From positions 1-57,124 of the forward strand of contig JAHFHD010000001.1 of assembly GCA_023247075.1 (NCBI GenBank): a DNA stretch of 57,124 nucleotides. The letters are read 5' to 3'. Below, in pieces: positions 5,975 through 57,124 of this stretch. The notes under the pieces were generated by a model that had not been told where the DNA came from, searched no databases, and saw nothing but the letters and a program-made list of their open reading frames with translations. The translations under genes were made by a program, and so were the position numbers. Within the stretch, counting starts at the first letter, position 1; each line of letters opens with the position of its first letter. The stretch comes from Candidatus Omnitrophota bacterium (GTDB lineage: Bacteria > Omnitrophota > Omnitrophia > Omnitrophales > Danuiimicrobiaceae).

Positions 5975-6045
5975 GCGGCCATAGTATAGTGGCAGTACAT
6001 GAGCTTCCCAAGCTCTTGGTGCGGGTTCGATTCCCGCTGGCCGCT
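5975..6045 (+). tRNA. tRNA-Gly (anticodon CCC)
   Basis: A 71-nt cloverleaf folded by hand. The acceptor is GCGGCCA/TGGCCGC, the D arm GTAT-AGTGGCA-GTAC, and the anticodon arm TGAGC-TTCCCAA-GCTCT. The T arm is GCGGG-TTCGATT-CCCGC and the discriminator is T. CCA is not encoded. Confidence 0.9.
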
Positions 6046-42252: not shown

Positions 42253-42321
42253 AATTTATTTTTTTTGAACTTAATTTTTTTAATCTACTGCCGTAAATTT
42301 AATCACTAAAGGGGATTCATA

Positions 42322-42972
42322 ATGGTTCAAGGGGAACTTTTTAGAGATGGTGAAAAAATTGAGACGGCTGAGTCCGTAAAATTGTCTTCATGGGCCGCCC
42401 AAGGCGTGACTTTTCAATTCAGCAGAATCTTAATTGCCGGCTTGTTTTTGATTGCTTTTGGAGTCGTGATTTATTGTTTTGGAGTTGAGCAGGGAAAGCG
42501 GGCGATGGAGCGGCATTATGAATCTTCGGGGTCTTCTTATGCGCAACCTTCTAGTGTTGCTGGTGCAAGTTCTAAAACACAGACAATTGTTTCGCGCCAG
42601 AACTCTTCAGGAGCTCAGGAATTGGTTGTGGTGGCAAATGAACCAGAACCCGAAGCATTGCCTGAAGAGCCATTAGGTAAAGCGACGGAAACTAGTGAAA
42701 TGGCGAAAACAACTTCTCCTGTCGATTCTTCACGTAAAGGCAAGGATCAATACACCATTCAGCTTGTTACTTACAAAGATCAATTACTTGCTAAAAACGA
42801 AGTTAATCGTTTAAGGGAAAAGGGTTATGAGAGCTTCATCATTCCAAGCGGCAGTTTTTATCAGGTATGCATCAATTATTATCAGTCAAAATTTGCTACT
42901 CGCTCAACACTTCATGAGCTTAAGGTAGAAGGACGCTACCCCGGCGCCTATGTTCGTCCAGTTACTCGGTAG
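42322..42972 (+). CDS. SPOR-domain protein, membrane anchored
   Basis: It has a TM helix (ILIAGLFLIAFGVVIYCFG), a low-complexity linker and a C-terminal SPOR-like fold (YTIQLVTYKDQLLAKNEVNRLREKGYESFIIP...YQVCINYY). Confidence 0.7.
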   Translation: MVQGELFRDGEKIETAESVKLSSWAAQGVTFQFSRILIAGLFLIAFGVVIYCFGVEQGKRAMERHYESSGSSYAQPSSVAGASSKTQTIVSRQNSSGAQELVVVANEPEPEALPEEPLGKATETSEMAKTTSPVDSSRKGKDQYTIQLVTYKDQLLAKNEVNRLREKGYESFIIPSGSFYQVCINYYQSKFATRSTLHELKVEGRYPGAYVRPVTR

Positions 42973-43134
42973 CAGATTTAAGGTTTAATTTCAAGCACCC
43001 ACGTTTGGTTGACTGCCCCTTCCAGGCAGCGATTTTTCAAATTTCTTTCCATCATATTGTTTCAGGGTTGACTCCTTATTTTTTGTAGAAAATCAATTTG
43101 AATCTGTTATAATACTCGTTGAAAGGAAATAACC

Positions 43135-43416
43135 ATGAGTCAACATTCAAGCTTAAAAGCAGCATCAGTCAGCGTGAAACACCGAAATGTTTTGAAACGC
43201 TACGAACGTATTCGCACCCTTCATGACAATGAAAAGTGGGGCGAACGAAAGTCGATTTACAAGCTTCCGAAACTCAAGATGATTAAATTGAAGGTCAAGA
43301 AAATTAAGGAAGCGAAGGAAACGGCTGCTCAAGCGGGGGCATCTACTGACCCAGCGGCACAAACACAAAAAACTAGCACACCAGCACCTCAGGAAAAATC
43401 AAAGGGCAAGCAATAG
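43135..43416 (+). CDS. Small basic protein (TIGR04137-like)
   Basis: MSQHSSLKAASVSVKHRNVLKRYERI...KLPKLK matches my recollection of the small-basic-protein family. The tail is Lys-rich. An extended -10 (TGtTATAAT, 43105-43113) and an AAGGAA RBS lie upstream. Confidence 0.55.
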   Translation: MSQHSSLKAASVSVKHRNVLKRYERIRTLHDNEKWGERKSIYKLPKLKMIKLKVKKIKEAKETAAQAGASTDPAAQTQKTSTPAPQEKSKGKQ

Positions 43417-43436
43417 GTGGCTTGTAATGTCGAGAA

Positions 43437-43925
43437 ATGAATGAAATAAAAATCAGACGATTTCAAACGGGTGATGAACAAAGTGTTTTGGAGTTGATTG
43501 AGAAAGTGCTCACAAGCGAGTTTCCGCTGGAAGCAAGCGCCTATTCTTCTGAAGACATCCAGGATATTTCAAATTCGTATGGAAAATTAGGAGAGGCATT
43601 TTTTGTTGCGGTGAAAAACAATCACATTGTTGGGACAGTTGGCATTAAGCGTGACGATGAAAGAACGGCGCTCTTGCGGCGGTTATTTGTGAAAGCAGAA
43701 GAAAGAAAACAGCGGCTTGGGGAAAAGCTAATTGATCAGGCTGTGGGGTTTGCGCGCGAGGTTGGTTATGATGAATTGATTTTTAAGACAACCTCAACAA
43801 TGAAACCAGCGGTGAAACTTGGTGAGAGAAAAGGGTTTGTACCGAAAGCGCGAATTAATGTGGGGCCAATTCAACTTTTGAAATTTGGATTAAATTTGAA
43901 AAAGCAAAATTTAAATCATCATTAA
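43437..43925 (+). CDS. GNAT-family N-acetyltransferase
   Basis: It has the acetyl-CoA-binding pattern RLFVKAEERKQRLGEKLI. The size (~160 aa) and beta-alpha pattern are typical. Confidence 0.8.
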   Translation: MNEIKIRRFQTGDEQSVLELIEKVLTSEFPLEASAYSSEDIQDISNSYGKLGEAFFVAVKNNHIVGTVGIKRDDERTALLRRLFVKAEERKQRLGEKLIDQAVGFAREVGYDELIFKTTSTMKPAVKLGERKGFVPKARINVGPIQLLKFGLNLKKQNLNHH

Positions 43926-43937
43926 GGAAAAAATATT

Positions 43938-44741
43938 ATGATGCCGAAAGGGCTTCTTAATTGGATTGAACGTGAAGAGCTAAAGCCGCTCAATGAAAAG
44001 GACATTCAAGAGCGGCTTTACGGTCAATATCGCAAGGGAATAGTTCGCACGCCTGACACCACACGCCAAAACGAATCAAAAAATGAAGGACGCTCTGAAT
44101 TCTCGTCTTCATCAAAATACGAAGTGACGAGTGGGCAATTAACTAATCCGTGGGAATCCTTGACTTTGTCCATACAGGGTGCGGCAAAAAGAATTCCGTG
44201 GCGGTTTGCGGGGGTTGTTTTGATTGTGTTGATTGCCTCACTGGTCGTTGGCCGTGGTACAGCAAATTGGATTGAACACATGAGAGAAACAAAGCGACTT
44301 CGCGAGGAAACTGTACGTGCAGAAAGTCTGCCTGTTGAGTTAAAGCCGAATGTTTCACAAAAGCGGTTGCGTAGTACAACTGAAGGCAGTGGGCCGTTAA
44401 CTTCTGTGGAACCGGAAAGTAAAGTGACGGCGAGCCTATTCAACCAAAAACAAAGTGCTCAGGTGGCAATTTCTAATGAAATGAAACAAAGAGTTTATGC
44501 AATTCAAATATGTACGTATCAACGAGAAGAAGATGCAAGCCATCTGGTGAGCGAGCTTGAAGCCCTGAAATTCGACGCATTTCATCGAAAAATACAATCA
44601 ACAAGCAGCCGGCCAAATTCATATTTTGTTGTTTTTTTGGGAAAGCGTGACACCTTTGGCGCTGCTCATGCCTTGCTCAAGGAATTCAAAAAAACAACAC
44701 TCTTCAATCATTTTTCAGACGCTTTTATCCGCTCACTTTAA
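43938..44741 (+). CDS. SPOR-domain protein, membrane anchored (second copy)
   Basis: It has a TM helix (FAGVVLIVLIASLVVG) and a C-terminal SPOR-like fold (YAIQICTYQREEDASHLVSELEALKFDAFHRK...YFVVFLG). Confidence 0.65.
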   Translation: MMPKGLLNWIEREELKPLNEKDIQERLYGQYRKGIVRTPDTTRQNESKNEGRSEFSSSSKYEVTSGQLTNPWESLTLSIQGAAKRIPWRFAGVVLIVLIASLVVGRGTANWIEHMRETKRLREETVRAESLPVELKPNVSQKRLRSTTEGSGPLTSVEPESKVTASLFNQKQSAQVAISNEMKQRVYAIQICTYQREEDASHLVSELEALKFDAFHRKIQSTSSRPNSYFVVFLGKRDTFGAAHALLKEFKKTTLFNHFSDAFIRSL

Positions 44742-44757: not shown

Positions 44758-45129
44758 ATGACTTGGTCTGGATTAGACCAGCGCAGCTTTCCGCGTTTAG
44801 AGCTTCAATGTGATATCTGGGTTTTTGACAACCAGGAAACCCACATTCAAACGACGACTGAAAATGTTGGCGGTGGTGGTGTGTGCGTCATTTTAAACCG
44901 CCCATTAGAACGATTTTCAATGGTGAAGCTAAAACTTATTTTGCCAAGCGATTTTGCAAGAGAAATTGAAGCCGATGGCCGCGTGGTTTGGATTGTTTGC
45001 AGCACGAATCCCGCCACAGGCAAAAAATCTTATGACACGGGCGTTGAATTTGTAAACTTGAATGAACAGGACAAAAAGACATTGCTCAATATTGTCCGGA
45101 TGAACACGAGTCCAAGTGAGATATTGTGA
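44758..45129 (+). CDS. Single-domain PilZ protein (putative c-di-GMP receptor)
   Basis: It has an RxxxR motif (QRSFPR) and a D/NxSxxG-like motif (ENVGGGG) with the right spacing. Confidence 0.72.
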   Translation: MTWSGLDQRSFPRLELQCDIWVFDNQETHIQTTTENVGGGGVCVILNRPLERFSMVKLKLILPSDFAREIEADGRVVWIVCSTNPATGKKSYDTGVEFVNLNEQDKKTLLNIVRMNTSPSEIL

Positions 45130-45623
45130 GTAAGGATTCATCTTTTGACATTGTTTCAGAAGTTGATTTGCAAGAAGTTGACAACGCAGTAAATCAAGCG
45201 GCTAAAGAAATAGAAACCCGTTATGATTTCAAGGGAAGTCAGAGCGAAATTCAATTTGACCGCACAAAAAAAGAAATTAAAATTATTACACGGACAGACA
45301 TCCAACTGAAAAGTATCATTGAACTGCTGCATCAAAAATTGTCAAAACGCGGCGTTCCGATTAAAGCGCTCAAACTTAAAGAACCTGAGAAAACATTTGA
45401 CGGGAAGATGAGTCAGATGGGAGAAATTATTCAAGGCATTGAACACGAGCAGGCCAAAGAGTTGGTAAAAGGGATTAAAGAGCTAAAACTGAAGGTGCAG
45501 GCGTCAATTCAGGAAGACCGCATTCGCGTTTCTGGTAAAAGCAAGAACGATCTTCAAGTTGTCATTTCCACTGTTCACAGTATGAAGATTTCAATTCCAC
45601 TTCAATTTATTAATTACAGGTAA
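45126..45623 (+). CDS. yajQ: YajQ-family (UPF0234) nucleotide / c-di-GMP-binding protein
   Basis: SFDIVSEVDLQEVDNAVNQAAKEIETRYDFKG is the canonical YajQ N-terminus. The GTG start overlaps the PilZ stop (GTGA). Confidence 0.88.
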   Translation: MSKDSSFDIVSEVDLQEVDNAVNQAAKEIETRYDFKGSQSEIQFDRTKKEIKIITRTDIQLKSIIELLHQKLSKRGVPIKALKLKEPEKTFDGKMSQMGEIIQGIEHEQAKELVKGIKELKLKVQASIQEDRIRVSGKSKNDLQVVISTVHSMKISIPLQFINYR

Positions 45624-45638
45624 ACTTAGGACTGCCAA

Positions 45639-45893
45639 ATGCTTGGAGAATTCAGCAATTTTTTTGGAGATTTGAATCAGTTGCTCAAATTAGCAAAAAA
45701 ACCTGAGTTTCAGCAGTTTCTCGCAAACCCAAAAGTTCAGGAATTGATGAAGGATGAGTTGTTTCGAAAATTAGTTCAGGAAAAAAAATTCCTAAAACTT
45801 GCAACCCACAAGCAATTTCAAGAATTAATGCGTGACCCCGAAATACAGACTAGTCTAGAAAATTTAAAGCGAAATGCAAGCCATGCAAAATAA
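45639..45893 (+). CDS. Small helical protein with internal STI1/DP-like repeats, hypothetical
   Basis: This 84-aa protein carries two repeats: PEFQQFLANPKVQELMKDE and KQFQELMRDPEIQTSLENL. Confidence 0.45.
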   Translation: MLGEFSNFFGDLNQLLKLAKKPEFQQFLANPKVQELMKDELFRKLVQEKKFLKLATHKQFQELMRDPEIQTSLENLKRNASHAK

Positions 45894-45907
45894 ATTTAGT
45901 CGTTGCC

Positions 45908-45935
45908 TTGCAAATACAAGTTCATGTGTTATACT
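45908..45935 (+). promoter_or_regulatory. Sigma70-type promoter candidate for the second PilZ gene
   Basis: It consists of TTGCAA (45908-45913), a 16-nt spacer and TATACT (45930-45935). Confidence 0.5.
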
Positions 45936-46042
45936 TTCTTTAGTAGTTAAGAAAGTAGCTATAACTCGTTTAATTTAAATGAGTTATAAGTTTTAGTGCT
46001 TAAAAGTGTGAACTAAAATAGCAGAACTTGATGGAGGAAGTC

Positions 46043-46435
46043 ATGGACAAAGACAAGAGAAAATTTAAGCGGTTTGATGCATTTATGAATGTGCATTTTC
46101 GAAGTCAGGAGGCAAAAGCTCATGAGGGCTCGGGGCTTTCTAGGGATTTGTCGCGTGAAGGGATTAAGGTCAATACGATTGAACCGCTCAAAGCTGGAGA
46201 TTTAATTGATTTGGAAATTCATATTCCAGATGACACCGCACCAGTTAAGACAACAGCAAAAGTGTTATGGAAGAAAACATGTGACGGCAAAGATCAGGGA
46301 ATGGATTACGGTGTAACCTTTCTCGCAATGGATCCAGTAGACAAATTTCGGGTTCTTGATTATGCCTACAATTATTGGCTTGAAACAAAAGTCAATGATT
46401 TTTCAGATCCAGAGCAGCTTAAAGATTTAGCTTAG
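46043..46435 (+). CDS. Single-domain PilZ protein (putative c-di-GMP receptor)
   Basis: It has RxxxR (RKFKR) and DxSxxG (RDLSREG) motifs. A GGAGGA RBS lies 4 nt before the ATG at 46043; the track start at 46028 is a TTG. Confidence 0.75.
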   Translation: MDKDKRKFKRFDAFMNVHFRSQEAKAHEGSGLSRDLSREGIKVNTIEPLKAGDLIDLEIHIPDDTAPVKTTAKVLWKKTCDGKDQGMDYGVTFLAMDPVDKFRVLDYAYNYWLETKVNDFSDPEQLKDLA

Positions 46436-48019: not shown

Positions 48020-48099
48020 TTACTGGTCTTCTCCTCCCCAATTCAAAGTTACCTAAAATTACCATTGATTGAACAAATACTATACCTAACGAAACTCAA

Positions 48100-48946
48100 A
48101 AGGTCTTTTGTTCCCTGATAACCCTCACCAGTAAGTCCAAGAGCGTCCACAGCCTTTCATCCATGCTCGCATTCGGCCCCAGCCGCGGCAAACACGTCGA
48201 AGCTACGCTTAAGACTTTTGATCCTGCCACCAAACGATTTATCACAGGCCATCAATTTGTAACCGGCACCCTTTACTGCCGGGGTCTCACGATCCCCTTT
48301 GGGATCCGTCTGCATCTGAACAAGATCTCGGCCCAAGTGCTGAAACAGCCCCATAAGAAATTAACATCTCTGGCCTCTGAAATCATCCAGGCTCTGGATC
48401 TTCCCAGATTTTGGAAAGGCAAAGTCTATTGTCTGATCGTTACGGCCTATTTCAATAAATCCACGCTTCAGGCCGCCAAATCCAAAGGATCCTTTGTCAT
48501 CGGAGCACTGAAAAAAAACTGAAATCTCCTAATCCGTGGCCGCCAAAGAAAAATCATGGCCATTGCTTCCACGGATCTGTCCATCTCTGCGGCTTTAATC
48601 ATCCTTTATTACACATTCCACTAGACCATTGAAGTCTGGTTTAAACAGGCTAAACAGCATCTTTGGCTTGGTGCACTCCACCGGACACGGTGGCAAGGGG
48701 TAGTCAAACACCTGCACCTTCGGCCTCCTGACCCACTTGGCATTACTTGGTGAAAAAGGCAAACTACTCGGAACCCATGCTGCCTACTCTGTGTTACCAA
48801 TTCGATTGGAACTTCGCGGACTTTTTCTCCGGGATTCCATCGATTACTTTATTGAGAAAGAACTAAACCAAAAACTTTCAACCGACATCGTCGAACTGAA
48901 AAACTTTCTGTTTGAAAACAATGAACTACTACAAAACGCCGTCTAA
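48100..48946 (+). pseudogene. Decayed DDE transposase (IS4/IS701-like) remnant
   Basis: Three fragments lie in different frames: 48163-48522, about 48530-48730, and 48737-48946. The Y-x2-R-W-x-I-E-x2-F-x3-K region reads YYTFH*TIEVWFKQAK, with TAG where the W codon is expected. A further shift occurs at about 48720 (FGLLTHLALLGEKG). Confidence 0.65.
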
Positions 48947-49061
48947 AAAACGGCCAGGTTGAGTAATCTACAAGTGTTGGAATCGACACCTCCTCGGGTC
49001 GTTTGCCAACGGATCGTCAATTTCTCCGGTTAACCTGCGTGTTTGATGTGCTTAACCCATT

Positions 49062-49089
49062 TTGCAAAGATTCAGATTCAACTTATAAT
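49062..49089 (+). promoter_or_regulatory. Sigma70-type promoter candidate of the MNT/HepT cassette
   Basis: TTGCAA (49062-49067), a 16-nt spacer and TATAAT (49084-49089) lie 21 nt before the ATG at 49111. Confidence 0.5.
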
Positions 49090-49110
49090 GGGACAGTAGT
49101 GGGTGATTTT

Positions 49111-49400
49111 ATGAAACTCAATGAAAGAGTCCAAGGACACAGGCAAGAAATTCTTTCTCTTGCTCAAAAATACGGCGCAAGAAACATCCGAATTTTTGGA
49201 TCTGTGGCGAGAGGCGATACGCAGAAAGATAGTGATATCGATGTGTTTGTGGATTTGGAATCGGGACGCAGCCTTCTTGACCACGGAGGTCTCTTAATGG
49301 ATCTTCAGGATCTCCTGGGTTGCCGTGTTGACGTCGTTACAGCAAAGGGGCTCGGGAGAGAATCAGAAGCAGAGTCCTGAAGGAGTCAGTGCCTTTATGA
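49111..49400 (+). pseudogene. MNT-type nucleotidyltransferase antitoxin (MntA-like), frameshifted near the 3' end
   Basis: It has the NTase core [23 protein letters not shown]. The expected C-terminus [15 protein letters not shown] is present only in a different frame from about 49350 and ends at the TGA at 49398-49400. Confidence 0.7.
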
Positions 49401-49626
49401 GAGATGATAAGGAACGGCTCAGGAATATTGCTGAGGCAACCCGTTCTTGATCAACTGAATTCAGAGAGAAACACTCTGACGTTGATTGGTCGAAGATCAT
49501 CCGAATGAGAAACATTTTAGTTCATAATTATTTTGGCATTGATATTGATGTGGTCTGAGTGCGGTTGAACGAGACCTCCCTGAATTGAAGCGAAAAATTA
49601 AAACTCTCTTACAGGGCAAGGACTGA
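49397..49626 (+). pseudogene. HepT (DUF86) toxin remnant, internally deleted/frameshifted with stops
   Basis: It starts MRDDKERLRNIAEA, overlapping the MNT stop (ATGA). The RNILVHNYFGIDIDVV* segment has TGA where the conserved W is expected. The tail LPELKRKIKTLLQGKD* is in yet another frame. Confidence 0.65.
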
Positions 49627-49693
49627 GTTTTAAAAAAGTCGTTTACCAATCAACCTATTTCCTCTACCTGAGTTGGGGTACTCCTTTATTATT

Positions 49694-49759
49694 GTCAGTT
49701 AAGATTCAAAATGGACAATCTAAATTCCTTTAAAACTGTCCATTTGAATCTTAACTGAC
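49694..49759. repeat. Long near-perfect inverted repeat (23/24-bp stem, 19-nt loop)
   Basis: GTCAGTTAAGATTCAAAATGGACA (49694-49717) pairs with TGTCCATTTGAATCTTAACTGAC (49737-49759), with a one-nt bulge. Confidence 0.8.
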
Positions 49760-49785
49760 ACCCCAATAGAACCCAATAGAACCTA

Positions 49786-49814
49786 TTGACGACCTAAATC
49801 CTGTGTGTTACTCT
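49786..49814 (+). promoter_or_regulatory. Promoter candidate for the TPS operon, preceded by a CAATAG repeat array
   Basis: It consists of TTGACG (49786-49791), a 17-nt spacer and TGtTACTCT (extended -10, 49806-49814). Immediately upstream are tandem CCCAATAGAA x2 (49762-49781) plus an inverted CTATTG. Confidence 0.4.
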
Positions 49815-49855
49815 ACCGCCCTGTCAAAATTAGTATCTCCGCTTTTATCCAAAAC

Positions 49856-51622
49856 ATGAAACTTATTCAAGTGCTTAGAAATACATTTTTTTTTAGCCCG
49901 CCTAAAATTTTTGCCGCATGGGTGGTTGCTTTTACATTGGTTTTTTTAACGACCCCTCCTCTCCACGCGCAGGATACAGAACGTGAAACAGCCGGCGCAG
50001 AACAGGCTCGTTTTGAAAAGGAATTGCAGCTTGAAGAAGAAACCCGTTCTACGGACAGTAAGGTAGCCGAAAAAAAATCTGTCATTGAAGAAGGAAGGAT
50101 CCAACCGGAACCGGCGCTTCAGAATGATGTGACTTTTATCCTGAAGGATATTATTTTTTTTGGTAATGAGCATATTTCTTCCGCTCAACTTAAAAAGTGT
50201 GGCGGGAACCATATCGGCGTTGAGGTCAATCTTGAAAGTTTGAAAAAAATCGCAGATGAAATCAAACAGTATTACCGTGATAAGGGCTATATCGCTGCGT
50301 ATGTGTATCTGCCTCCCCAAGATGTGATGGAAGGTGTAGTGACGATTGACGTGGTCGAAGGCAAGCTGGGCCAGGTGGACATTCAGGGAAATAAGTGGGT
50401 CTCAACCCGAACGCTCCGTAGAAATTTTGGAACGAAGTCAGGCCAGATTGTTTTCCTCAACAATCTTCAAACAGCCCTTCGTTTTTTAAATGCCAATCGC
50501 AGTATTCAGGCCACGGCTGTTTTAAAGCCCGGGGCAGAACCTCAAACCACCGATCTTGAATTGAATGTCAAAGATCAATTTCCTTTGCATGTCACCACCG
50601 ACGTGAATAATTTGGGTACGGACAACACCGGGAAAAATCGCTGGGGTCTCATGCTGCATGATACAAATGTGCTGGGTCAAATGGATGAGGCCTTCGCCCG
50701 TGTTCAATTAGGCAAAGGATTGTGGTCGGTAGGTTCTGACTACAACATACCTATTAATAGGCAGCACACGCGGGTGGGTTTTTCTTATATTCGCTCGTCC
50801 GTGGATGTGGGAGGTCCTTTTAAAGATCTGGGTGTTGAGGGGAGTGCCTCCACTTATTCCCTGTATGTGACCCAGCCGGTTTATTCCACGGAATGGCTTG
50901 AGACTTCTTTTCAGGGCGGGTTTGACTGGAAGAGTGTTGAAAATAGGAGCCTTGGGCGTGTGTCGGGTAAAGATGAGTTTCGTATTATGGATCTAGCATT
51001 CGCGGCAAAGGAAAATGACCGCTATGGCCGCACCCTTCTGCCGCAATCGGTACATTTTGGTTTTGATAGTTTTCTCGGCGCTTCCAATAAAGTGGACAGC
51101 GGATCCACGCGGGCTCAGACAGGAGGACAATTTTTTATTTATCGTGGTTCACTCATTCGTTATCAAAAACTTCCTCTTGAAATGATGTATTCAATGCGTA
51201 CGGTATGGCAGCTGACTCCGGACCGTCTTGCCCCTTCGGAGCAGTTTCGCTTGGGAGGCGCGTTCAGTGTTCGCGGGTATCCGGAAGGGGATTATCTCGG
51301 GGATCAAGGGGCTTTTATTTCGCAAGAGGTGTTTGTACCTTCCTATATATTTCCACCCAAATGGCAGCTTCCGTATTCAAGTGAGCCTTTATATAAACAG
51401 GTCCAGGTGGTGGGTTTTTTTGATTTTGGTGGGGGATCGCTCAATCGTCCTCTTGCGGCAGAGGATAAAAGAAAACACTCGGCAGGTCTTGGCGGTGGTT
51501 TACGGATTCATCTTTTTGACAGAGTCTTTGCCCGTTTCCAATGGGCCGGCCGTGTGGGATCCAAATCTTCTGATGGAAACAACAGCGTTTTCTACTACGG
51601 AATTTCCATAGAAATGTTATAG
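49856..51622 (+). CDS. ShlB/FhaC/HecB-family two-partner-secretion outer-membrane transporter (TpsB)
   Basis: It has a signal peptide (AAWVVAFTLVFLTTPPLHAQ). The POTRA region reads ILKDIIFFGNEHISSAQL...YYRDKGYIAAYVYLPPQDVMEGVVTIDVVEGKLGQVDIQGNKW. The C-terminal beta-barrel ends in F/Y-rich strands. I preferred the ATG at 49856 to the track's GTG at 49805. Confidence 0.85.
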   Translation: MKLIQVLRNTFFFSPPKIFAAWVVAFTLVFLTTPPLHAQDTERETAGAEQARFEKELQLEEETRSTDSKVAEKKSVIEEGRIQPEPALQNDVTFILKDIIFFGNEHISSAQLKKCGGNHIGVEVNLESLKKIADEIKQYYRDKGYIAAYVYLPPQDVMEGVVTIDVVEGKLGQVDIQGNKWVSTRTLRRNFGTKSGQIVFLNNLQTALRFLNANRSIQATAVLKPGAEPQTTDLELNVKDQFPLHVTTDVNNLGTDNTGKNRWGLMLHDTNVLGQMDEAFARVQLGKGLWSVGSDYNIPINRQHTRVGFSYIRSSVDVGGPFKDLGVEGSASTYSLYVTQPVYSTEWLETSFQGGFDWKSVENRSLGRVSGKDEFRIMDLAFAAKENDRYGRTLLPQSVHFGFDSFLGASNKVDSGSTRAQTGGQFFIYRGSLIRYQKLPLEMMYSMRTVWQLTPDRLAPSEQFRLGGAFSVRGYPEGDYLGDQGAFISQEVFVPSYIFPPKWQLPYSSEPLYKQVQVVGFFDFGGGSLNRPLAAEDKRKHSAGLGGGLRIHLFDRVFARFQWAGRVGSKSSDGNNSVFYYGISIEML

Positions 51623-51696
51623 GTCATGAAGGTATTTTCTTAATATCAATGCATCATCAATCGTTCCAATCTGATTCATTTAGGAGTAGACATTTT

Positions 51697-54600
51697 TTGA
51701 AAAAAACTCTAGCGTTCCTGCTCTTACTGGCGTTCATTCATTTGACGTCCTATTCCATCGCGGTGCAGGCAGATCCTTCTTCCATACCTGAAGAACCGGC
51801 TGCTGTCACGGCGGATTTTTCAGCAGGAGCAGGGGAGCTGCCTTCTATCCCGTCCGCAGACTCCGCCACGCCCATTCCCGAGCCCGAGCCTTCTATTATT
51901 GTAGACTTTTCCGTGGCAGCAAATCCTGAATTACCATCCCTTCCGAAACCCGCGACTCTTTTAATTCCAGAAGAGACGACCTATGCTGTGAACACCCTTT
52001 TGGTAGGTGAAAATCAACAATTAAGTATTGGGGTTGTCAATGCCATCGGAGAATTATGTCCTTCCTGCCGCGCTATTTTGGAAACGGGTTCATTCGTGAA
52101 TAATGGACAAATCGATATAGTCGGTATTCTTGCCATCATTGCTCCTGTCATCATTAATAATGGAAACATCACGGTTGCGGGAGATCTTCTGCTTTCCAAT
52201 TTAGGCATTAACAAAGAGCAATTTTTTGCAGGGGTAGCAGCGTTAGCGAAGGATCCTGACATGAAACCGGGATTTATTCTTAACAATGGTGAAATTAATA
52301 ACCTCACCAAAGGTCTGACTGCTCTGGTGGGATCCAGGGGAGGAGTTCATAATTTTGGAACTATTGCTTCGAAGGGAGGAGTGGTAGGTCTTCTTGCGGG
52401 AGAAAGACTGAGCTTTCCGTTGACTTCCGATGGACTGCTTTCCGTGAATATTCAAGAGGGGGTCCCGATTCAAGCTGATGTTTATGATGCGCAGGGCAAT
52501 CTCATTCATCCCGAGGGTTTGATTACCAATAGCGGTACGATTCAGGCAAACGGTGGTTTGGTGGTTTTAAGCGCAGCTGCAAAACAAGAAGCGCTGAATA
52601 ACGTCATCAACCAAACAGGTATCATCGAAGCCAATACCCTTGAAAAGGTGGGAGGAAGAATTATTCTGAATGGCGGCCCTTCGGGTGTGGTGCGTGTTCA
52701 GGGAGTTCTCAATGCACGCGGCAGTCAAGTGGGCGAAAAGGGCGGTAAAATTAATATCCTGGGTGAAAAGGTCGGGCTCTTTGCAGGTACCCTGATTGAC
52801 GTTTCAGGTTATGCGGGTGGAGGCGAGGTTCTTGTCGGTGGAGACTATCAGGGTTTAGGGACAGTTTCCAATGCCCTTTATACCTATATGGATCCTTTGG
52901 CTTCTATTAATGCTAATGCCATTCTTGAAGGGAGCGGAGGAAGAGTCATTGTGTGGTCGGATCATTCCACCCGGGTTTATGGTTCGATCAGTGCCAAGGG
53001 CGGCGCACTTAGCGGCGACGGAGGATTCGTCGAAACCTCAGGTAAGGAATTTTTGGATGTCAGCGAGAGCGATGTGAATGCGGGTGCAGTAAATGGAAAG
53101 GCCGGCTCCTGGCTTCTTGATCCAAGGAATGTCACGGTGGTCGCGGGTTCTGGATCTACGAATCCTTCCGGATATGCGGGGGGCGTATTTACTCCAAGTG
53201 CAGATACTGCGACCGTAGGAGCCGATACGATTCGGGATTCTTTAAACGCTGGAACTAATGTGGAAATTAATACTGGGACAACCGGAACCGTCCAGGCCGG
53301 AAATATTACCGTGAGTTCGCTGATTCAAATGACAGTAAATCCTGGCGTTGCTGTGCAGCTTCTTCTCAAGGCTGCGAATGACATTGGTATTAATGCTGGC
53401 ACCGGAATCACTTCTCTGGGAGTTGCCATTTTAAATATTATTATTCAAGCCGACAGTGATGGAAACGGGTCTGGCACCGCGACGATTAGCGCGGGTATCA
53501 ACACAAACGGTGGCAGTCTTCAAATTATGGCCGATGATCTGGTGATGACCGGGATTCTCGACAGCGGGGCTGGTGTAATCAGTATTTTATCGTCGAACAA
53601 TCAAACGATAGGCTTTGGAGCAACTTCAGGAGGACTGACCGTGAGCGGTGCCGAGCTTCAAAATATCACCACGTCCGGCGGTCTTACAATCGGTGATTCA
53701 ACCAATGGCAATATCACGGTGAACGGAATTAATTCTACGAATAGCGCCAATGTTACGGGAACGCTTACCTTGAATGCGACGCAGGCTGGCAGCAATGTGA
53801 CATTTTCAAACAGTGATTCCACGTTCAAAACTTTAGTGGTCAATGCGGCAGACGGTGTTACGGCGAATCGAAGTGTGACTACAAATAGTAATGGCATTAC
53901 GATCAACACAGATTCAGATGCCAATGGGGTGGGGGATTTGACAGTCGCTTCCAGCAGGACGGTTAATTCCGGGAATAAGCCGCTGAATATTACCGCCAAT
54001 GATGTCTCGCTGAGCGGTAATTTGAATTCCGGAATTGCAACGACAACATTGCTTATTTCTGATGGTGGGACCATGGGGTTGGGTTCGACCGCAGGGAACT
54101 GGACACTTTCCGGTGCAGAGCTTCAGAACATTACGGCGAATGGTCTGGCCATCGGAAATAATACAAATGGGAATATTACAGTCAACAACATCACGGCCGG
54201 CAATAGCAATAATATTTCAGGGACCCTGACATTGAATGCAACGGGAAGTGGGAAGAGCATTATTTTTTCCGGCAATGCCTCGACGTTTAATGCGTTGAGC
54301 GCCAATGCAGATGACGGGATTTCTATTTCTCAGAATATCACGACGGATACGGGGAACCTTGCGCTCAATGGTGACTTTGACAATGCGGTTGATACGAGCG
54401 ATAAGATCAACATTACCTCGAGTGGTCGAACGCTGACATCAGCTGGAACGATGACGCTGTCCGCGGCGACTGGAAATATTATAGACTCCGGGTCTCTGAC
54501 GCTGAACGCGGATAATGGGATCATCCTGAGTCAAGCGCTGACTACCAGTGGTACGACGAGCATAAATTCGGATGCGGATGGGAATGGAAGTGGAGATTTG

Positions 54601-57124
54601 ACAGGAGAGGCGATCACGACGAGCAATGGAGCTCTCAATATTACGGCCAATGATTTGACACTTAACGGTGCGGTGAATTCAGGGACGGCGGCGACGACCC
54701 TATTAGTTTCTGACGGAGGGACCATAGGTTTAGGATCGAGTGCCGGGAACTGGACGCTTTCCGGGGCAGAGCTTCAGAACATTACGGCGAATGGTCTGAC
54801 CATCGGAGATAATACGAATGGGAATATTACGGTAGATAATATTACTGCTGCCAACAGCAATAATGTGGGTGGGACCGTGACCTTGAATGCGACGGCAAGC
54901 TCCGGCACTGTCAGTTTTTCGAATAACATTTCAATCTTTAATGCTTTGAGTGTGAATGCAGGCAATGGGATTACGGTGAATAAGAACGTCAGCACGGACA
55001 CGGGCGGGATTACAATGAATTCAGATTCCAACAACAATGGGTCTGGGACGTTGACGGTGGCGAACTTGGCGACGATTAATTCCGGTGGCCAGGCCATGCA
55101 GATCACCTCAGATGATATTAATCTGAATACGAGCGGAGCTTTGAATAGTGGAGCGGCAGCGACAACCTTGTTAACAACAAATGGCAATACGATAGGTTTA
55201 GGATCGAGTGCCGGGAACTGGACGCTTTCCGGGGCAGAGCTTCAGAACATTACGGCGAATGGTCTGACCATCGGAGATAATACGAATGGGAATATTACGG
55301 TAGATAATATTACTGCTGCCAACAGCAATAATGTGGGTGGGACCGTGACCTTGAATGCGACGGCAAGCTCCGGCACTGTCAGTTTTTCGAATAACATTTC
55401 AATCTTTAATGCTTTGAGTGTGAATGCAGGCAATGGGATTACGGTGAATAAGAACGTCAGCACGGACACGGGCGGGATTACAATGAATTCAGATTCCAAC
55501 AACAATGGGTCTGGGACGTTGACGGTGGCGAACTTGGCGACGATTAATTCCGGTGGCCAGGCCATGCAGATCACCTCAGATGATATTAATCTGAATACGA
55601 GCGGAGCTTTGAATAGTGGAGCGGCAGCGACAACCTTGTTAACAACAAATGGCAATACGATAGGTTTAGGATCGAGTGCCGGGAACTGGACGCTTTCCGG
55701 GGCAGAGCTTCAGAACATTACGGCCGGGAACTTGGTGATTGGGAATAATACGAATGGAGCAATTAGTGTTCTAAGTGTTACAGGACCTAACAGTAATAAT
55801 ATCGGAAAGGTAACGCTCAATGCCACGTCTACAACTGGAACTGTCACTTTTGATCCAGCCGCTTCAACTTTTAACGCCCTTGAAGTCAATGCTGGGAACG
55901 GTGTTTTCTTTAATACGAATGTGACCGCCGATACAGGTGCTGTTTCCGTTAACGCGGATTCGGACGGCAACGGAACGGGAACATTTTCTGTGGTTGCTGG
56001 ATCGACTTTAAATACAAGTGGAAGCAATCTTACTTTCACCGGCGGTGATTTTAATCTTCCGGGCAACATCAATGCGGGCACGGGGACAGTATTTTTTAAT
56101 CCCAGTGCTGGGGACACCATTGGCTTGGGAAGCACCTCTGGAACTTATAATATTTCAGACAGCGAAGCGGATCGTATCATAGCGGGAACCTTGGATATTG
56201 GTACCGCAACTTCTGGAGATATTATTGTCGATAACTTTACACCTTCAGGCTCCGCCGCCCTTATTTTACGTACCGGCGGCCGTGTGGGTGAAGGAACTGC
56301 AGATGCGGGTGCAGATATCACGGCAACCACGCTGGCAATTTATGCGGCTAACGGTATTGATATCGATACGCAAGTCAGCACGCTCGCTTTTGTTAATTCG
56401 ACCACGGGCAATGTGAATATTGATAATACCGGGGCTTTAACCATCGACTCGGTCAGCGGAATTACAAATTCCCAAAACACGGGAACTGGAACCACGACGA
56501 TTTCTTCCCGCAGCCCAATGACACTCGCCGTAGATATCATTCAGGCTGGCGCTATTACTCTTTCGGCCGGTGAAAGCGCTGCCACGGGAGATAATTTGAC
56601 GGTGAACAGTGGCGTGACTGTAAAGTCCACAACTGGCGACGTAACCCTGAAGGCCGGGGACAATGTGATTCTCCAATCGACCTCAGTCGTAAAATCTGAT
56701 GCTGGAAGCGTGACTTTAACGGCTGGTTTTGGTGACACAGACAGCGCAGGCAACTTGACTCTTGGAAGTATGATTAATGCATTAATCAACGCAATCCTCT
56801 CAGCTTTTGGGACCATTAATGGTGATGGGACTCCAGCAACAGATGTGACGGCAGCCTCTCTGAATGCCACATCTGCGACCGGGATTGATTTAGATACAAC
56901 GGTGACGAATCTGACGGCCCACACCACTGGAGCTGGGAATATTAATCTTGATGAAGCGGATGGAGCGAATGTACTGAGCGTGGTTGCAGACAATGGTAAT
57001 GCCACAGTAACCAGCACGACCGGAAATCTTGGAGTTAGCACTTTAACCGCCACGGGCGGAACCGCAACACTGACCGCAACAGCTGGAGCGATTAGCGACG
57101 CAAATGCTGGAACGAACAATATCA
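51697..57124 (+). CDS. Giant FhaB/filamentous-hemagglutinin-like exoprotein (TpsA), 3'-truncated by the window edge
   Basis: It is not in the ORF track because it has no stop. A TTG at 51697 follows AGGAG (51682-51686), and frame +1 stayed open to nt 57124 in my hand translation. The signal peptide is LKKTLAFLLLLAFIHLTSYSIAVQA. FhaB-type modules are GGEVLVGGDYQG, RVIVWSDHSTRVYGSISAKGG and GDGGFVETSGKEFL...WLLDPRNVTV, followed by repeated LSGAELQNIT modules. Confidence 0.85.
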   Translation, partial: MKKTLAFLLLLAFIHLTSYSIAVQADPSSIPEEPAAVTADFSAGAGELPSIPSADSATPIPEPEPSIIVDFSVAANPELPSLPKPATLLIPEETTYAVNTLLVGENQQLSIGVVNAIGELCPSCRAILETGSFVNNGQIDIVGILAIIAPVIINNGNITVAGDLLLSNLGINKEQFFAGVAALAKDPDMKPGFILNNGEINNLTKGLTALVGSRGGVHNFGTIASKGGVVGLLAGERLSFPLTSDGLLSVNIQEGVPIQADVYDAQGNLIHPEGLITNSGTIQANGGLVVLSAAAKQEALNNVINQTGIIEANTLEKVGGRIILNGGPSGVVRVQGVLNARGSQVGEKGGKINILGEKVGLFAGTLIDVSGYAGGGEVLVGGDYQGLGTVSNALYTYMDPLASINANAILEGSGGRVIVWSDHSTRVYGSISAKGGALSGDGGFVETSGKEFLDVSESDVNAGAVNGKAGSWLLDPRNVTVVAGSGSTNPSGYAGGVFTPSADTATVGADTIRDSLNAGTNVEINTGTTGTVQAGNITVSSLIQMTVNPGVAVQLLLKAANDIGINAGTGITSLGVAILNIIIQADSDGNGSGTATISAGINTNGGSLQIMADDLVMTGILDSGAGVISILSSNNQTIGFGATSGGLTVSGAELQNITTSGGLTIGDSTNGNITVNGINSTNSANVTGTLTLNATQAGSNVTFSNSDSTFKTLVVNAADGVTANRSVTTNSNGITINTDSDANGVGDLTVASSRTVNSGNKPLNITANDVSLSGNLNSGIATTTLLISDGGTMGLGSTAGNWTLSGAELQNITANGLAIGNNTNGNITVNNITAGNSNNISGTLTLNATGSGKSIIFSGNASTFNALSANADDGISISQNITTDTGNLALNGDFDNAVDTSDKINITSSGRTLTSAGTMTLSAATGNIIDSGSLTLNADNGIILSQALTTSGTTSINSDADGNGSGDLTGEAITTSNGALNITANDLTLNGAVNSGTAATTLLVSDGGTIGLGSSAGNWTLSGAELQNITANGLTIGDNTNGNITVDNITAANSNNVGGTVTLNATASSGTVSFSNNISIFNALSVNAGNGITVNKNVSTDTGGITMNSDSNNNGSGTLTVANLATINSGGQAMQITSDDINLNTSGALNSGAAATTLLTTNGNTIGLGSSAGNWTLSGAELQNITANGLTIGDNTNGNITVDNITAANSNNVGGTVTLNATASSGTVSFSNNISIFNALSVNAGNGITVNKNVSTDTGGITMNSDSNNNGSGTLTVANLATINSGGQAMQITSDDINLNTSGALNSGAAATTLLTTNGNTIGLGSSAGNWTLSGAELQNITAGNLVIGNNTNGAISVLSVTGPNSNNIGKVTLNATSTTGTVTFDPAASTFNALEVNAGNGVFFNTNVTADTGAVSVNADSDGNGTGTFSVVAGSTLNTSGSNLTFTGGDFNLPGNINAGTGTVFFNPSAGDTIGLGSTSGTYNISDSEADRIIAGTLDIGTATSGDIIVDNFTPSGSAALILRTGGRVGEGTADAGADITATTLAIYAANGIDIDTQVSTLAFVNSTTGNVNIDNTGALTIDSVSGITNSQNTGTGTTTISSRSPMTLAVDIIQAGAITLSAGESAATGDNLTVNSGVTVKSTTGDVTLKAGDNVILQSTSVVKSDAGSVTLTAGFGDTDSAGNLTLGSMINALINAILSAFGTINGDGTPATDVTAASLNATSATGIDLDTTVTNLTAHTTGAGNINLDEADGANVLSVVADNGNATVTSTTGNLGVSTLTATGGTATLTATAGAISDANAGTNNI
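54724..55724 (+). repeat. Perfect 468-bp tandem duplication (2.14 copies) inside the TpsA gene
   Basis: The unit 54724-55191 is identical to 55192-55659, and the first ~65 nt repeat again at 55660-55724. The two identical 137-aa antisense ORFs in the track (54774-55187, 55242-55655) are offset by exactly 468 nt. Confidence 0.95.

What the first reader, a model, noticed from the sequence alone, without database searches (positions are those of the whole stretch)
51697..57124. Giant exoprotein gene missing from the ORF track: FhaB-like TpsA with a non-canonical N-terminus
Frame +1 is open for at least 5,428 nt, from a TTG with a good AGGAG RBS to the window edge. Every track entry in this span is antisense or out of frame. 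The product has a signal peptide and a Pro/Glu-rich spacer (PSSIPEEPAAV...PIPEPEPS). It then carries the beta-helical block typical of TPS-secreted hemagglutinin-like proteins: GGEVLVGGDYQG, VIVWSD...SAKGG, GGFVETSG and LLDPxN. In the first ~200 residues I could not find the hallmark TPS-domain motifs (NPNL / NPNG-I, LNRV-type) that TpsB POTRA domains recognise. That region instead has a Cys pair (GELCPSCRAIL) and an unrelated Ile/Asn-rich segment. Two readings are possible. One is that the secretion domain is highly diverged, which would imply a distinct TpsA/TpsB recognition mode. The other is that the N-terminus was replaced. The effector end, for example a CdiA-type toxin plus immunity gene, would lie beyond the window.
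Basis: partly seen in the sequence, partly recalled or inferred. Interest (0 to 1): 0.7.

Follow-up and report, generated by a model that had tools for sequence, protein, structure and literature searches.

The report
Exoprotein with a motif-less secretion domain
This is the front 1,809 residues of a giant secreted fibre protein, encoded next to its outer-membrane transporter, and it matters because the front-end domain that normally carries the pathway's signature motifs has lost them while apparently keeping the same fold, in a small lineage seen so far only in Candidatus Omnitrophota genomes.

Summary
Frame +1 is open from TTG 51697 (AGGAG 10 nt upstream) to the window edge, 1,809 codons. 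The ORF list omits it only because ORFs that run off an end are not listed, and the window is a whole 57,124-bp contig.

A canonical TpsB transporter gene lies directly upstream (49805-51622). The protein is a two-partner-secretion exoprotein of the HMW1/EtpA type, not the FhaB type, so the missing NPNL motif is expected.

What is unusual is the first ~75 residues of the secretion (TPS) domain, residues 90-162. They have no Pfam or NCBIfam hit, no NPNG turn, no LNRV-type strand and no aromatic cluster. They carry a CxxC instead.

This region diverged; it was not replaced. Intermediate relatives link it collinearly to canonical domains, and the AlphaFold model (pLDDT 92) overlays the EtpA secretion domain (TM 0.81). 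Close relatives show dN/dS of 0.05-0.12.

An exhaustive profile search of 1.84 billion proteins found only about 16 clusters. All named genomes are Candidatus Omnitrophota, and every complete locus has a TpsB upstream. TpsBs 40-43% identical serve canonical NPNG-bearing partners, and the POTRA domains are not specially remodelled.

Complete relatives end in a conserved module plus a Pro/Glu tail, not a CdiA-type toxin.

The parts
49805..51622 (+). tpsB: Omp85-family TpsB transporter. The likely start is ATG 49856, giving 588 aa.
   Evidence: Pfam ShlB 1.3e-21 and POTRA_2 5.7e-18. L6 motif LGGAFSVRGYPEG. AF2 model pLDDT 90.6 with an N-terminal helix, two POTRA-like units and a barrel. Foldseek CdiB 6wim TMt 0.79 and FhaC 3njt TMt 0.71. 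Exact product is in the database as a 588-aa protein (P0146).
51623..51696 (+). 74-nt tpsB-tpsA spacer, with Shine-Dalgarno AGGAG at 51682-51686.
   Evidence: Sequence. No terminator-like site lies between the two genes, which is compatible with co-transcription.
51697..57124 (+). tpsA: giant exoprotein gene, 5' part only (1,809 codons), cut by the contig end.
   Evidence: Open frame. The window is the whole contig. Relatives are 1,518-5,372 aa.
51697..51771 (+). Sec-type signal peptide (residues 1-25, ...SIAVQA|DP) carrying the clade-specific H-x-x-[TS]-[FY] motif (HLTSY).
   Evidence: Read from the sequence; no predictor was run. The motif is present in 16 of 18 clade members.
51772..51963 (+). 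Pro/Glu-rich spacer (residues 26-89) with an internal repeat: IPEEPAAVTADFSAGAGELPSIP / IPEPEPSIIVDFSVAANPELPSLP.
   Evidence: Analogous Pro-rich spacers occur in the Omnitrophota relatives L010 and L011. The spacer is absent from most other clade members.
51964..52182 (+). Variant first half of the TPS domain (residues 90-162). It is motif-less, mostly aliphatic and three residues shorter at the NPNG turn (IIAPV).
   Evidence: An HMM of the canonical first half scores 146-161 bits on relatives and 0.9 bits here. Identity to canonical sister TpsAs is 11%, against 44-45% further downstream. AF2 pLDDT is 91-97 over this part. dN/dS is 0.05-0.12 in close relatives.
52057..52068 (+). CPSC (C121-x-x-C124), the only cysteines in the 1,809 residues.
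   Evidence: The CxxC is conserved in the inner subclade (P0131, P0132, P0135, P0136, L008-L011) and absent from outer members.
52183..53157 (+). Conserved remainder of the HMW1/EtpA-type secretion domain (residues 163-487): LLLSNLGINKEQFFAG anchor, GGEVLVGGDYQG, VIVWSD, GGFVETSG, WLLDPRN.
   Evidence: phmmer hit to EtpA 8vba at 1.4e-37 (query 166-487) and to HMW1-PP 2odl at 3.5e-16. Foldseek EtpA 8cpk TMt 0.81.
53584..56106 (+). Five ~156-aa (one 217-aa) Gly/Asn/Thr/Ser-rich passenger repeats, each with the motif SGAELQNIT.
   Evidence: Composition is G 13.7%, N 13.3%, T 16%, S 10.8% with almost no charged residues other than Asp. No Pfam family matches.
54724..55724 (+). Perfect 468-bp tandem duplication (2.1 copies) inside the repeat array.
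   Evidence: Tandem Repeats Finder: 100% matches, score 2002.

Best explanation
The 49.8-57.1 kb stretch is a tpsB-tpsA two-partner-secretion (type Vb) operon from a Candidatus Omnitrophota-like genome.

Inferred mechanism, from established knowledge of the pathway:
- The exoprotein is exported by Sec through its N-terminal signal peptide.
- It crosses the periplasm unfolded and is engaged by the two POTRA domains of the adjacent TpsB.
- It is threaded through the 16-stranded barrel and folds outside the cell into a long right-handed beta-helix, which the N-terminal TPS domain nucleates.

Shown here: the TPS domain belongs to the HMW1/EtpA subfamily, but its first ~75 residues have been rewritten by divergence. 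The first cap strand, the aromatic cluster, the LNRV-type strand and the NPNG turn are gone. They are replaced by aliphatic strands, a three-residue-shorter turn and a CxxC loop. The fold is predicted to be kept, and the new sequence is itself under purifying selection.

The passenger is a Gly/Asn/Thr-rich repeat fibre and is most likely an adhesin-like surface or secreted filament. Judged from complete relatives, the full protein is probably thousands of residues long and ends in a conserved C-terminal module plus a Pro/Glu-rich tail rather than a toxin.
For: - Gene pair: the TpsB has ShlB and POTRA_2 domains, the VRGY L6 motif and an AF2 model matching CdiB and FhaC.
- TpsA homology: EtpA 1.4e-37 and HMW1-PP 3.5e-16 over residues 133/166-487. 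There are 197 relatives, nearly all carrying PF05860.
- Fold: AF2 pLDDT 92.1 and pTM 0.90, with the N-terminal blocks at 91-97. Foldseek finds EtpA TPS at TMt 0.81, HMW1-PP at 0.78, and HxuA and FHA30 lower down.
- Loss of motifs: no Pfam or NCBIfam hit. The canonical first-half HMM scores 0.9 bits here against 146-161 bits on relatives.
- Divergence rather than replacement: a graded series at the turn runs NPNG -> NA[HQY]G -> AQMG -> AP[VT] with a 3-residue deletion, and P0139/P0140 retain W/F. hhalign gives 96% (E 2e-9) with the anchor and 58% (E 1e-4) without it, and the match is collinear.
- Functional constraint: dN/dS is 0.05-0.12 in the variant half, the same as in the rest of the domain.
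- Conserved pairing: a TpsB lies directly upstream in L001, L002, L004, L006, L007 and L014.
- Taxon: all named GTDB hits and all named TpsB relatives at 48% identity or more are Candidatus Omnitrophota.
- C-terminus of relatives: conserved FLNxPPGL...DGR..ADFPG.FN module plus a Pro/Glu tail. The three C-terminal ends scanned have no Pfam toxin domain, and no clade member has a VENN motif.
Against: - No experiment shows secretion or TpsB dependence.
- Without the anchor, the profile-profile support for homology of the first half is only moderate (58%). It vanishes when the intermediates are left out (0.5%).
- The AF2 alignment was dominated by canonical rows, which could bias the N-terminal fold towards a beta-helix.
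- The signal-peptide cleavage site was read by eye.
- The adhesin function and the nature of the missing C-terminus are extrapolated from relatives 25-32% identical in the passenger.
- The window's own taxonomy is inferred from its relatives, not from a marker gene.
Confidence: 0.82

Rival explanations
1. N-terminal replacement: the first half of the TPS domain was swapped by recombination for an unrelated segment, or for a duplicated generic beta-helix coil. In that case this would not be a diverged TPS domain.
For: - Identity to canonical sister TpsAs drops abruptly from 32-45% to 11% at residue 162.
- HMMER aligns residues 130-161 weakly (5.2 bits) to the next coil of the canonical domain rather than to the NPNG coil.
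- The inner clade alone shows no profile similarity to the canonical first half (Prob 0.5%).
Against: - Outer clade members (P0139, P0140, P0141-P0143, L014) bridge the gap residue by residue and in the same order. They retain W/F of the NW..F strand and N..G of the turn.
- The whole-clade profile aligns collinearly to the canonical first half.
- The segment has about the expected length, and the model shows the expected strand order.
- The exhaustive profile search found no similarity to any other family.
Confidence: 0.08
2. CdiA-type contact-dependent inhibition toxin: the unseen C-terminus carries a polymorphic toxin followed by an immunity gene.
For: - The TpsB's best PDB match by sequence and by fold is CdiB.
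- The C-terminus lies outside the contig and cannot be seen.
Against: - The TPS domain is of the HMW1/EtpA type, not the FHA/CdiA type.
- No Fil_haemagg (FHA) repeats were detected in residues 501-1809.
- Complete clade members share one conserved C-terminal module and a Pro/Glu tail. The three ends scanned have no Pfam toxin domain.
- No VENN motif occurs in any member.
- The genes downstream of P0139, P0135 and P0141 are housekeeping or convergent.
Confidence: 0.05
3. Decaying or artefactual gene: the odd N-terminus reflects a pseudogene, a mis-assembly or a chimeric contig end.
For: - The gene sits at a contig end.
- It contains a perfect 468-bp duplication.
- It uses a TTG start.
Against: - The frame is 5.4 kb long and uninterrupted.
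- The same variant N-terminus occurs in at least 16 independent clusters and MAGs.
- It evolves under strong purifying selection.
- The tpsB-tpsA order is conserved.
Confidence: 0.03

Closest known systems
EtpA of enterotoxigenic E. coli (PDB 8cpk, 8vba) with its transporter EtpB
   Same: - Best sequence match (1.4e-37, residues 166-487) and best fold match (TMt 0.81).
- Same GGGEV.VGG.QG, .WSD...G.I.AKGG, GG.VETS and WLLD motifs.
- Beta-helical secretion domain followed by long repeats.
- TpsB-dependent type Vb system.
   Different: - EtpA has the NPNG turn, an aromatic cluster in the first helical turn and a two-strand cap (PMC10284417). Here all three are missing or rewritten.
- EtpA has an extended signal peptide and no Pro/Glu spacer.
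- The etp locus also encodes a glycosyltransferase (my own knowledge). None is adjacent here among the genes checked.
HMW1 adhesin pro-piece of Haemophilus influenzae (PDB 2odl) with HMW1B
   Same: - Same TPS subfamily, the one lacking NPNL (PMC5422565).
- phmmer 3.5e-16 over residues 133-454.
- TMt 0.78.
   Different: - HMW1 keeps INPNGI. phmmer places this opposite VGILAI here.
- About 26 more residues precede that coil in HMW1-PP.
Canonical TpsA partners of the nearest non-clade TpsBs (L015, L016 from Ca. Eisenbacteria, L017)
   Same: - Sister group. Their TpsBs are 43%, 40% and 35% identical to this one.
- L016 TpsA is 44% identical over residues 261-480 and L015 45% over the 62 aligned columns its contig holds; L017 is 25%.
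- Same gene order.
   Different: - They carry PF05860 hits (L016, L017), L[YFS]RV and NPNG/NPHG.
- Identity to the window protein in the first half is only 11-14%.
FhaB/FHA of Bordetella pertussis (FHA30, PDB 1rwr) with FhaC
   Same: - Same secretion pathway and overall beta-helical TPS fold.
- FhaC is a fold match of the TpsB.
   Different: - Different TPS subfamily, with the NPNL hairpin and FHA repeats.
- Only a weak fold match to the TpsA model (E 0.019, TMt 0.50).
- 'FhaB-like' is therefore not the best label.

Membership tests
TpsA exoproteins of two-partner (type Vb) secretion | Gene adjacent to, and co-oriented with, a TpsB (Omp85 family, two POTRA domains plus a 16-strand barrel) | tested here: met
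   ShlB and POTRA_2 domains. AF2 model and Foldseek matches to CdiB and FhaC. 74-nt spacer with no terminator. Same arrangement in six related loci.
TpsA exoproteins of two-partner (type Vb) secretion | N-terminal Sec signal peptide | tested here: inconclusive
   Residues 1-25 have the n/h/c layout with AVQA|D, read by eye. No signal-peptide predictor was available.
TpsA exoproteins of two-partner (type Vb) secretion | N-terminal domain with the right-handed beta-helical TPS fold | tested here: met
   AF2 pLDDT 92.1. Foldseek EtpA TPS TMt 0.81, HMW1-PP 0.78, and HxuA and FHA30 also hit. This is a prediction, not an experiment.
TpsA exoproteins of two-partner (type Vb) secretion | TpsB-dependent secretion of the N-terminal fragment | not testable with these tools
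   Needs heterologous expression.
Pfam PF05860 (TPS secretion domain) / NCBIfam TIGR01901 | Score at or above the curated cut-off (33.5 bits for PF05860) | tested here: not met
   No hit at E<=1 for residues 1-500 or at E<=10 for residues 1-268. Nine other clade members also fail; the best is 18.6 bits.
TPS domain, sequence hallmarks | NPNG beta-turn, described as highly conserved and crucial for folding and secretion (PMC5422565) | tested here: not met
   The aligned position reads IIAPV with a 3-residue deletion. No NPNG occurs in the 1,809 residues.
TPS domain, sequence hallmarks | NW..F.IG / LNRV-type strands and the aromatic cluster of the first helical turn | tested here: not met
   Residues 90-162 contain one Tyr, one Phe and no Trp. 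The canonical first-half HMM scores 0.9 bits. See also the alignments.
TPS domain, FHA/HpmA subfamily | NPNL hairpin | tested here: not met
   Absent. It is also absent from HMW1, EtpA and HxuA, so this does not argue against TpsA membership.
HMW1/EtpA-type secretion domain (second TPS subfamily) | Significant sequence similarity to the solved HMW1-PP and EtpA secretion domains, including the distal GG.VETS and WLLD motifs | tested here: met
   EtpA 1.4e-37, HMW1-PP 3.5e-16.
CdiA (contact-dependent inhibition) | FHA-1/FHA-2 repeats, a VENN-type pretoxin boundary, a variable CdiA-CT toxin and a downstream cdiI gene | tested here: inconclusive
   The C-terminus lies outside the window. No Fil_haemagg repeats in residues 501-1809. 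No VENN in the window fragment or in any clade member. Three complete relatives' C-terminal ends have no Pfam toxin hit, and the loci of P0139, P0135 and P0141 have no immunity-like neighbour.

The most novel reading that the evidence does not exclude
The clade may use a rewritten recognition and folding code. On this reading the NPNG-less, aliphatic, CxxC-bearing first coils work with a different set of contacts to the TpsB POTRA domains or to a periplasmic factor, together with the unusually conserved H-x-x-[TS]-[FY] motif in the signal peptide and, in some members, a Pro-rich spacer. If that is right, what TpsB proteins read in their substrates is not the classical motif set, and this natural pair would be orthogonal to canonical TPS systems.
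Probability: 0.15. Interest if true: 0.7.

Novelty: new variant of a known kind. Interest (0 to 1): 0.45.

Why it matters
Reviews call the NPNG turn highly conserved across TpsA proteins and crucial for their folding and secretion, and mutating its first Asn cuts secretion of FHA and ShlA (PMC5422565, PMC10284417). Here a whole lineage has dispensed with NPNG, with the aromatic cluster and with the LNRV-type strand. It nevertheless keeps a canonical TpsB and evolves under purifying selection.

Three consequences follow:
1. It is a natural experiment on what TpsB POTRA domains actually recognise and on what is needed to nucleate the beta-helix. Graded intermediates and canonical sister pairs (TpsBs 40-43% identical) are ready-made for swap experiments.
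2. These proteins escape Pfam and NCBIfam TPS models and are deposited as 'hypothetical protein'. Type Vb substrates are therefore under-counted in Candidatus Omnitrophota.
3. Omnitrophota are ultra-small bacteria thought to attach to or prey on other cells, and the functions of their giant surface ORFs are poorly understood (PMC10066038). A TpsB-exported fibre 1,500-5,400 residues long is a concrete candidate attachment organelle with a known export route.

Tried and rejected
- A search with only the variant N-terminus (141 aa) in the word-indexed database returned a single 101-aa fragment. The exhaustive profile search was needed. Two of its 18 hits (P0138, P0144) are low-complexity junk and were discarded.
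- hhalign with only four variant sequences gave 49-70% probability, driven by the anchor alone. It was repeated with 18 sequences.
- Pfam on the passenger (residues 501-1809) gave nothing above threshold.
- I looked for POTRA-specific co-divergence as a sign of a new recognition mode. The variant-versus-canonical identity ratios are 0.76 for POTRA1, 0.63 for POTRA2 and 0.72 for the barrel, so there is no clear signal.
- Rfam on the whole window found only one tRNA, so there is no leader RNA upstream of the operon.
- The promoter and terminator scan did not exceed shuffled expectation.
- GC is 48-49% in tpsA against about 43% elsewhere. I attribute this to the Gly/Ala/Thr-rich coding sequence, not to horizontal transfer, and did not test it further.
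- The contig cannot be extended because the window is the whole record. An exact-match look-up of a neighbouring gene found only shorter contigs.
- The literature search found no paper on TPS domains that lack NPNG. The Omnitrophota giant-ORF papers do not mention type V secretion.
Full report
**1. The observation**

Translating window 51697-57124 in frame +1 gives 1,809 codons without a stop. AGGAG lies at 51682-51686, 10 nt upstream of the TTG. The frame is open upstream to 51574 and holds one further candidate start, ATG 51649, which has no Shine-Dalgarno sequence.

Every ORF listed inside the span is antisense or out of frame. The reason is mechanical: ORFs that run off an end are not listed. 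Exact-sequence look-ups show that the window is a complete 57,124-bp NCBI contig, so the gene cannot be extended in that assembly.

The signal peptide, the Pro/Glu spacer, the Cys pair and the four beta-helix motifs are all present as described. C121 and C124 are the only cysteines in the 1,809 residues.

**2. Surroundings**

The ORF immediately upstream (49805-51622; probable start 49856) is a TpsB transporter.
- Pfam gives ShlB 1.3e-21 and POTRA_2 5.7e-18.
- It has the L6 motif LGGAFSVRGYPEG.
- Its closest solved relative by sequence is CdiB 6wim, at 2.4e-18.
- An AF2 model (pLDDT 90.6) shows an N-terminal helix, two POTRA-like units and a barrel.
- Foldseek ranks CdiB (TMt 0.79) and FhaC (up to 0.71) first, ahead of BamA and TamA.

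The 74-nt spacer between the two genes has no terminator-like site. The pair is therefore a tpsB-tpsA operon.

**3. What the protein is**

By sequence, residues 166-487 match EtpA (1.4e-37) and residues 133-454 match the HMW1 pro-piece (3.5e-16). A database search gave 197 relatives, almost all with a precomputed PF05860 domain. The two closest (P0001 and P0002, the latter from a Candidatus Omnitrophota MAG) lack that call.

The protein belongs to the HMW1/EtpA subfamily of TPS domains. According to the literature, that subfamily never has the NPNL hairpin; NPNL is specific to FHA and HpmA. NPNG, in contrast, is described as highly conserved in TpsA proteins and crucial for folding and secretion, and an aromatic cluster fills the first helical turn (PMC5422565 and PMC10284417). 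The missing NPNL is thus expected. The interesting question is what happened to the rest.

**4. The anomaly is real and local**

- Pfam and NCBIfam find nothing in residues 1-500 at E<=1.
- Pfam finds nothing in residues 1-268 at E<=10. The N-termini of nine other members of the same clade also fail; the best is 18.6 bits against a 33.5-bit cut-off.
- I built an HMM of the canonical first half from 98 of this protein's own nearest PF05860-bearing relatives. It scores 146-161 bits on canonical members. It scores 0.9 bits on the window protein and below 1 bit on P0001, P0002 and P0121 (P0002's best single stretch is 7.3 bits).
- The HMM of the whole canonical domain aligns only from residue 162 onward.
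- Against the canonical sister proteins L015 and L016, identity is 11% in residues 90-162. It is 32-35% in residues 163-260 and 44-45% in residues 261-480.
- Residues 90-162 contain one Tyr, one Phe and no Trp.

**5. Diverged, not replaced**

An exhaustive profile search with the variant N-terminus against 1.84 billion representatives returned 18 proteins. Sixteen are genuine; two are low-complexity junk. A scan of 185,579 species genomes added seven loci. Aligned together, these form a graded series.

At the NPNG turn the series runs:
- canonical sisters: L(I/V)NPNGI(I/L)FG;
- P0139 and P0140: NAHG and NAQG;
- P0141 and L014: NAYG and NTFG;
- P0133: AQMG;
- P0137: AQS;
- the window subclade: AP[VT], with three residues deleted.

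P0139 and P0140 still have the Trp and Phe of the NW..F.IG strand (NDWETFNVAGGETTSIS). Arg aligns at one column in most variant members (GRAII in P0139, CRAIL in the window), near the R of the canonical L[YFS]RV strand.

Profile-profile comparison of the whole variant clade with the canonical domain gives 96% probability (E 2e-9) over 88 collinear columns. With the shared anchor removed it still gives 58% (E 1e-4), again collinear. With the inner subclade alone the signal disappears (0.5%).

The AF2 model of residues 90-520 is confident throughout, with pLDDT 92.1, pTM 0.90 and N-terminal blocks at 91-97. Foldseek matches the EtpA secretion domain over its full length (TMt 0.81, 387 columns for a 384-residue target) and HMW1-PP (TMt 0.78).

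Among close relatives, dN/dS in the variant half is 0.05-0.12. That is no higher than in the rest of the domain (0.02-0.16). The rewritten sequence is therefore functional and constrained, not decaying.

The weak points are these. The homology signal without the anchor is only moderate. The AF2 alignment was mostly canonical rows.

**6. The transporter side**

The TpsB has more than 100 relatives at 40-58% identity. All named ones at 48% identity or more are Candidatus Omnitrophota.

TpsBs paired with variant TpsAs are 48-58% identical to this one:
- L014: 58%;
- L002: 51%;
- L008-L011: 48-50%;
- L004, the partner of the intermediate P0139: 48%.

The next TpsBs down pair with canonical TpsAs. 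L015 (43%), L016 (40%, Candidatus Eisenbacteria) and L017 (35%) have TpsA partners with L[YFS]RV and NPNG or NPHG; L016's and L017's carry PF05860 hits, while L015's is cut by the contig end and was not scanned.

Between the variant-partner and canonical-partner TpsBs, POTRA1, POTRA2 and the barrel have diverged to similar degrees. The identity ratios are 0.76, 0.63 and 0.72. I see no sign of a remodelled receptor. Either the POTRA domains do not read the lost motifs, or small changes were enough.

**7. The rest of the protein, and what lies beyond the edge**

Residues ~630-1470 are five repeats, four of ~156 aa and one of 217 aa, each with SGAELQNIT. Units 3 and 4 are nearly identical and correspond to a perfect 468-bp tandem duplication. 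The passenger is 54% Gly, Asn, Thr and Ser and has no Pfam family.

Clade members run from 1,518 to 5,372 residues, and several of the listed sequences are contig-truncated fragments. The window fragment aligns to roughly the first 1,700-2,000 residues of the larger ones. P0133, P0135, P0137, P0141 and P0142 share a conserved end of the form NPG..F..A.G...G.S.N..GN......FLNxPPGL...NG......DGR..ADFPG.FN, followed by a Pro/Glu-rich tail; P0139 keeps the FLNLPPGL core without the tail. The three C-terminal ends scanned match no Pfam toxin domain. No VENN motif is present in any clade member. The genes downstream of three of them are housekeeping or convergent.

A CdiA-like toxin and immunity module is therefore unlikely here. 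The most probable role is an adhesin-like fibre. That is an inference from composition and from the functions of EtpA and HMW1.

**8. Other clade features**

- The signal peptides of 16 of 18 members share H-x-x-[TS]-[FY] just before the cleavage region. That is unusual conservation for a signal peptide.
- The CxxC is confined to the inner subclade.
- The 64-residue Pro/Glu spacer, with its internal repeat, has counterparts in two Omnitrophota MAGs, L010 and L011. The TPS domain evidently need not sit directly at the mature N-terminus.

**9. Comparison and novelty**

It works like, and on structural and genomic grounds is, a type Vb TpsA of the HMW1/EtpA subfamily. It fails the sequence-defined tests: PF05860, TIGR01901, NPNG and the aromatic cluster. 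I therefore file it as a new variant of a known kind.

The lineage is rare (about 16 clusters at 50% identity among 1.84 billion representatives) and is so far seen only in Candidatus Omnitrophota. I found no paper on TPS domains that lack NPNG. The Omnitrophota giant-ORF studies do not mention type V secretion.

**10. Verdict**

- Interest is moderate. A type V secretion specialist would find a constrained, NPNG-less TPS domain with a canonical TpsB a useful natural experiment, but the system remains an ordinary two-partner secretion operon in architecture.

Noticed in passing
window 54724-55724: Perfect 468-bp tandem duplication (2.1 copies, 100% identity) inside the tpsA repeat array. In a short-read MAG the true copy number could be higher or lower, so the length of the protein is uncertain here.
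   Followed up: partly
window 51697-51771, and the N-termini of P0131-P0145 and L008-L011: The signal peptides of 16 of 18 variant-clade TpsAs share an H-x-x-[TS]-[FY] motif (HLTSY in the window) just before the predicted cleavage region. The canonical sister TpsAs lack it. This is unusual conservation for a signal peptide, and its role is unknown.
   Followed up: partly
window 51772-51963; L010 and L011 N-termini: A 64-residue Pro/Glu-rich spacer with an internal ~23-residue repeat sits between the signal peptide and the TPS domain. Two Omnitrophota MAG relatives have analogous but non-identical Pro-rich spacers. Most clade members have none.
   Followed up: partly
C-termini of P0133, P0135, P0137, P0139, P0141, P0142 (not in the window): Complete relatives share an unannotated C-terminal module (FLNxPPGL...NG...DGR..ADFPG.FN). 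In all but P0139 it is followed by a Pro/Glu-rich tail (for example PPAVVPVP), and it resembles the window's N-terminal spacer in composition. Three of these ends were scanned and have no Pfam match. It may be a retention or processing element.
   Followed up: partly
window 44758-46435: Two PilZ-domain genes (44758-45129, 46028-46435) flank a DUF520 gene (45126-45623), 5-7 kb upstream of the operon. DUF520 is YajQ-like, a family reported to bind c-di-GMP (my own knowledge). In the related locus L014 a PAS-GGDEF gene and response regulators lie upstream. There may be a c-di-GMP link to fibre expression.
   Followed up: no
window 48020-49800: A gene-poor stretch just upstream of tpsB. It holds only a nucleotidyltransferase-domain ORF (49003-49380), a 119-aa ORF with no family and short overlapping ORFs. 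GC skew falls to about zero here, unlike the rest of the contig. It may be a degraded insertion or junction.
   Followed up: no
L001 2391-6326: The closest relative, P0001, ends at 794 aa, and a second ORF follows 66 nt later in the same direction and runs to the contig end. This is probably one giant gene split by a sequencing or assembly error in a repeat.
   Followed up: no
L004 5001-9557 (P0139): The intermediate-type TpsA P0139 carries a C-type lectin domain (PF00059) in its passenger. This supports a carbohydrate-binding, adhesin-like role for at least some clade members.
   Followed up: no
window 41608-44741: A signal peptidase I gene (41608-42252) is followed by two SPOR-domain genes and a GNAT acetyltransferase gene. 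A tRNA lies at 5975-6045. These are ordinary housekeeping context.
   Followed up: no
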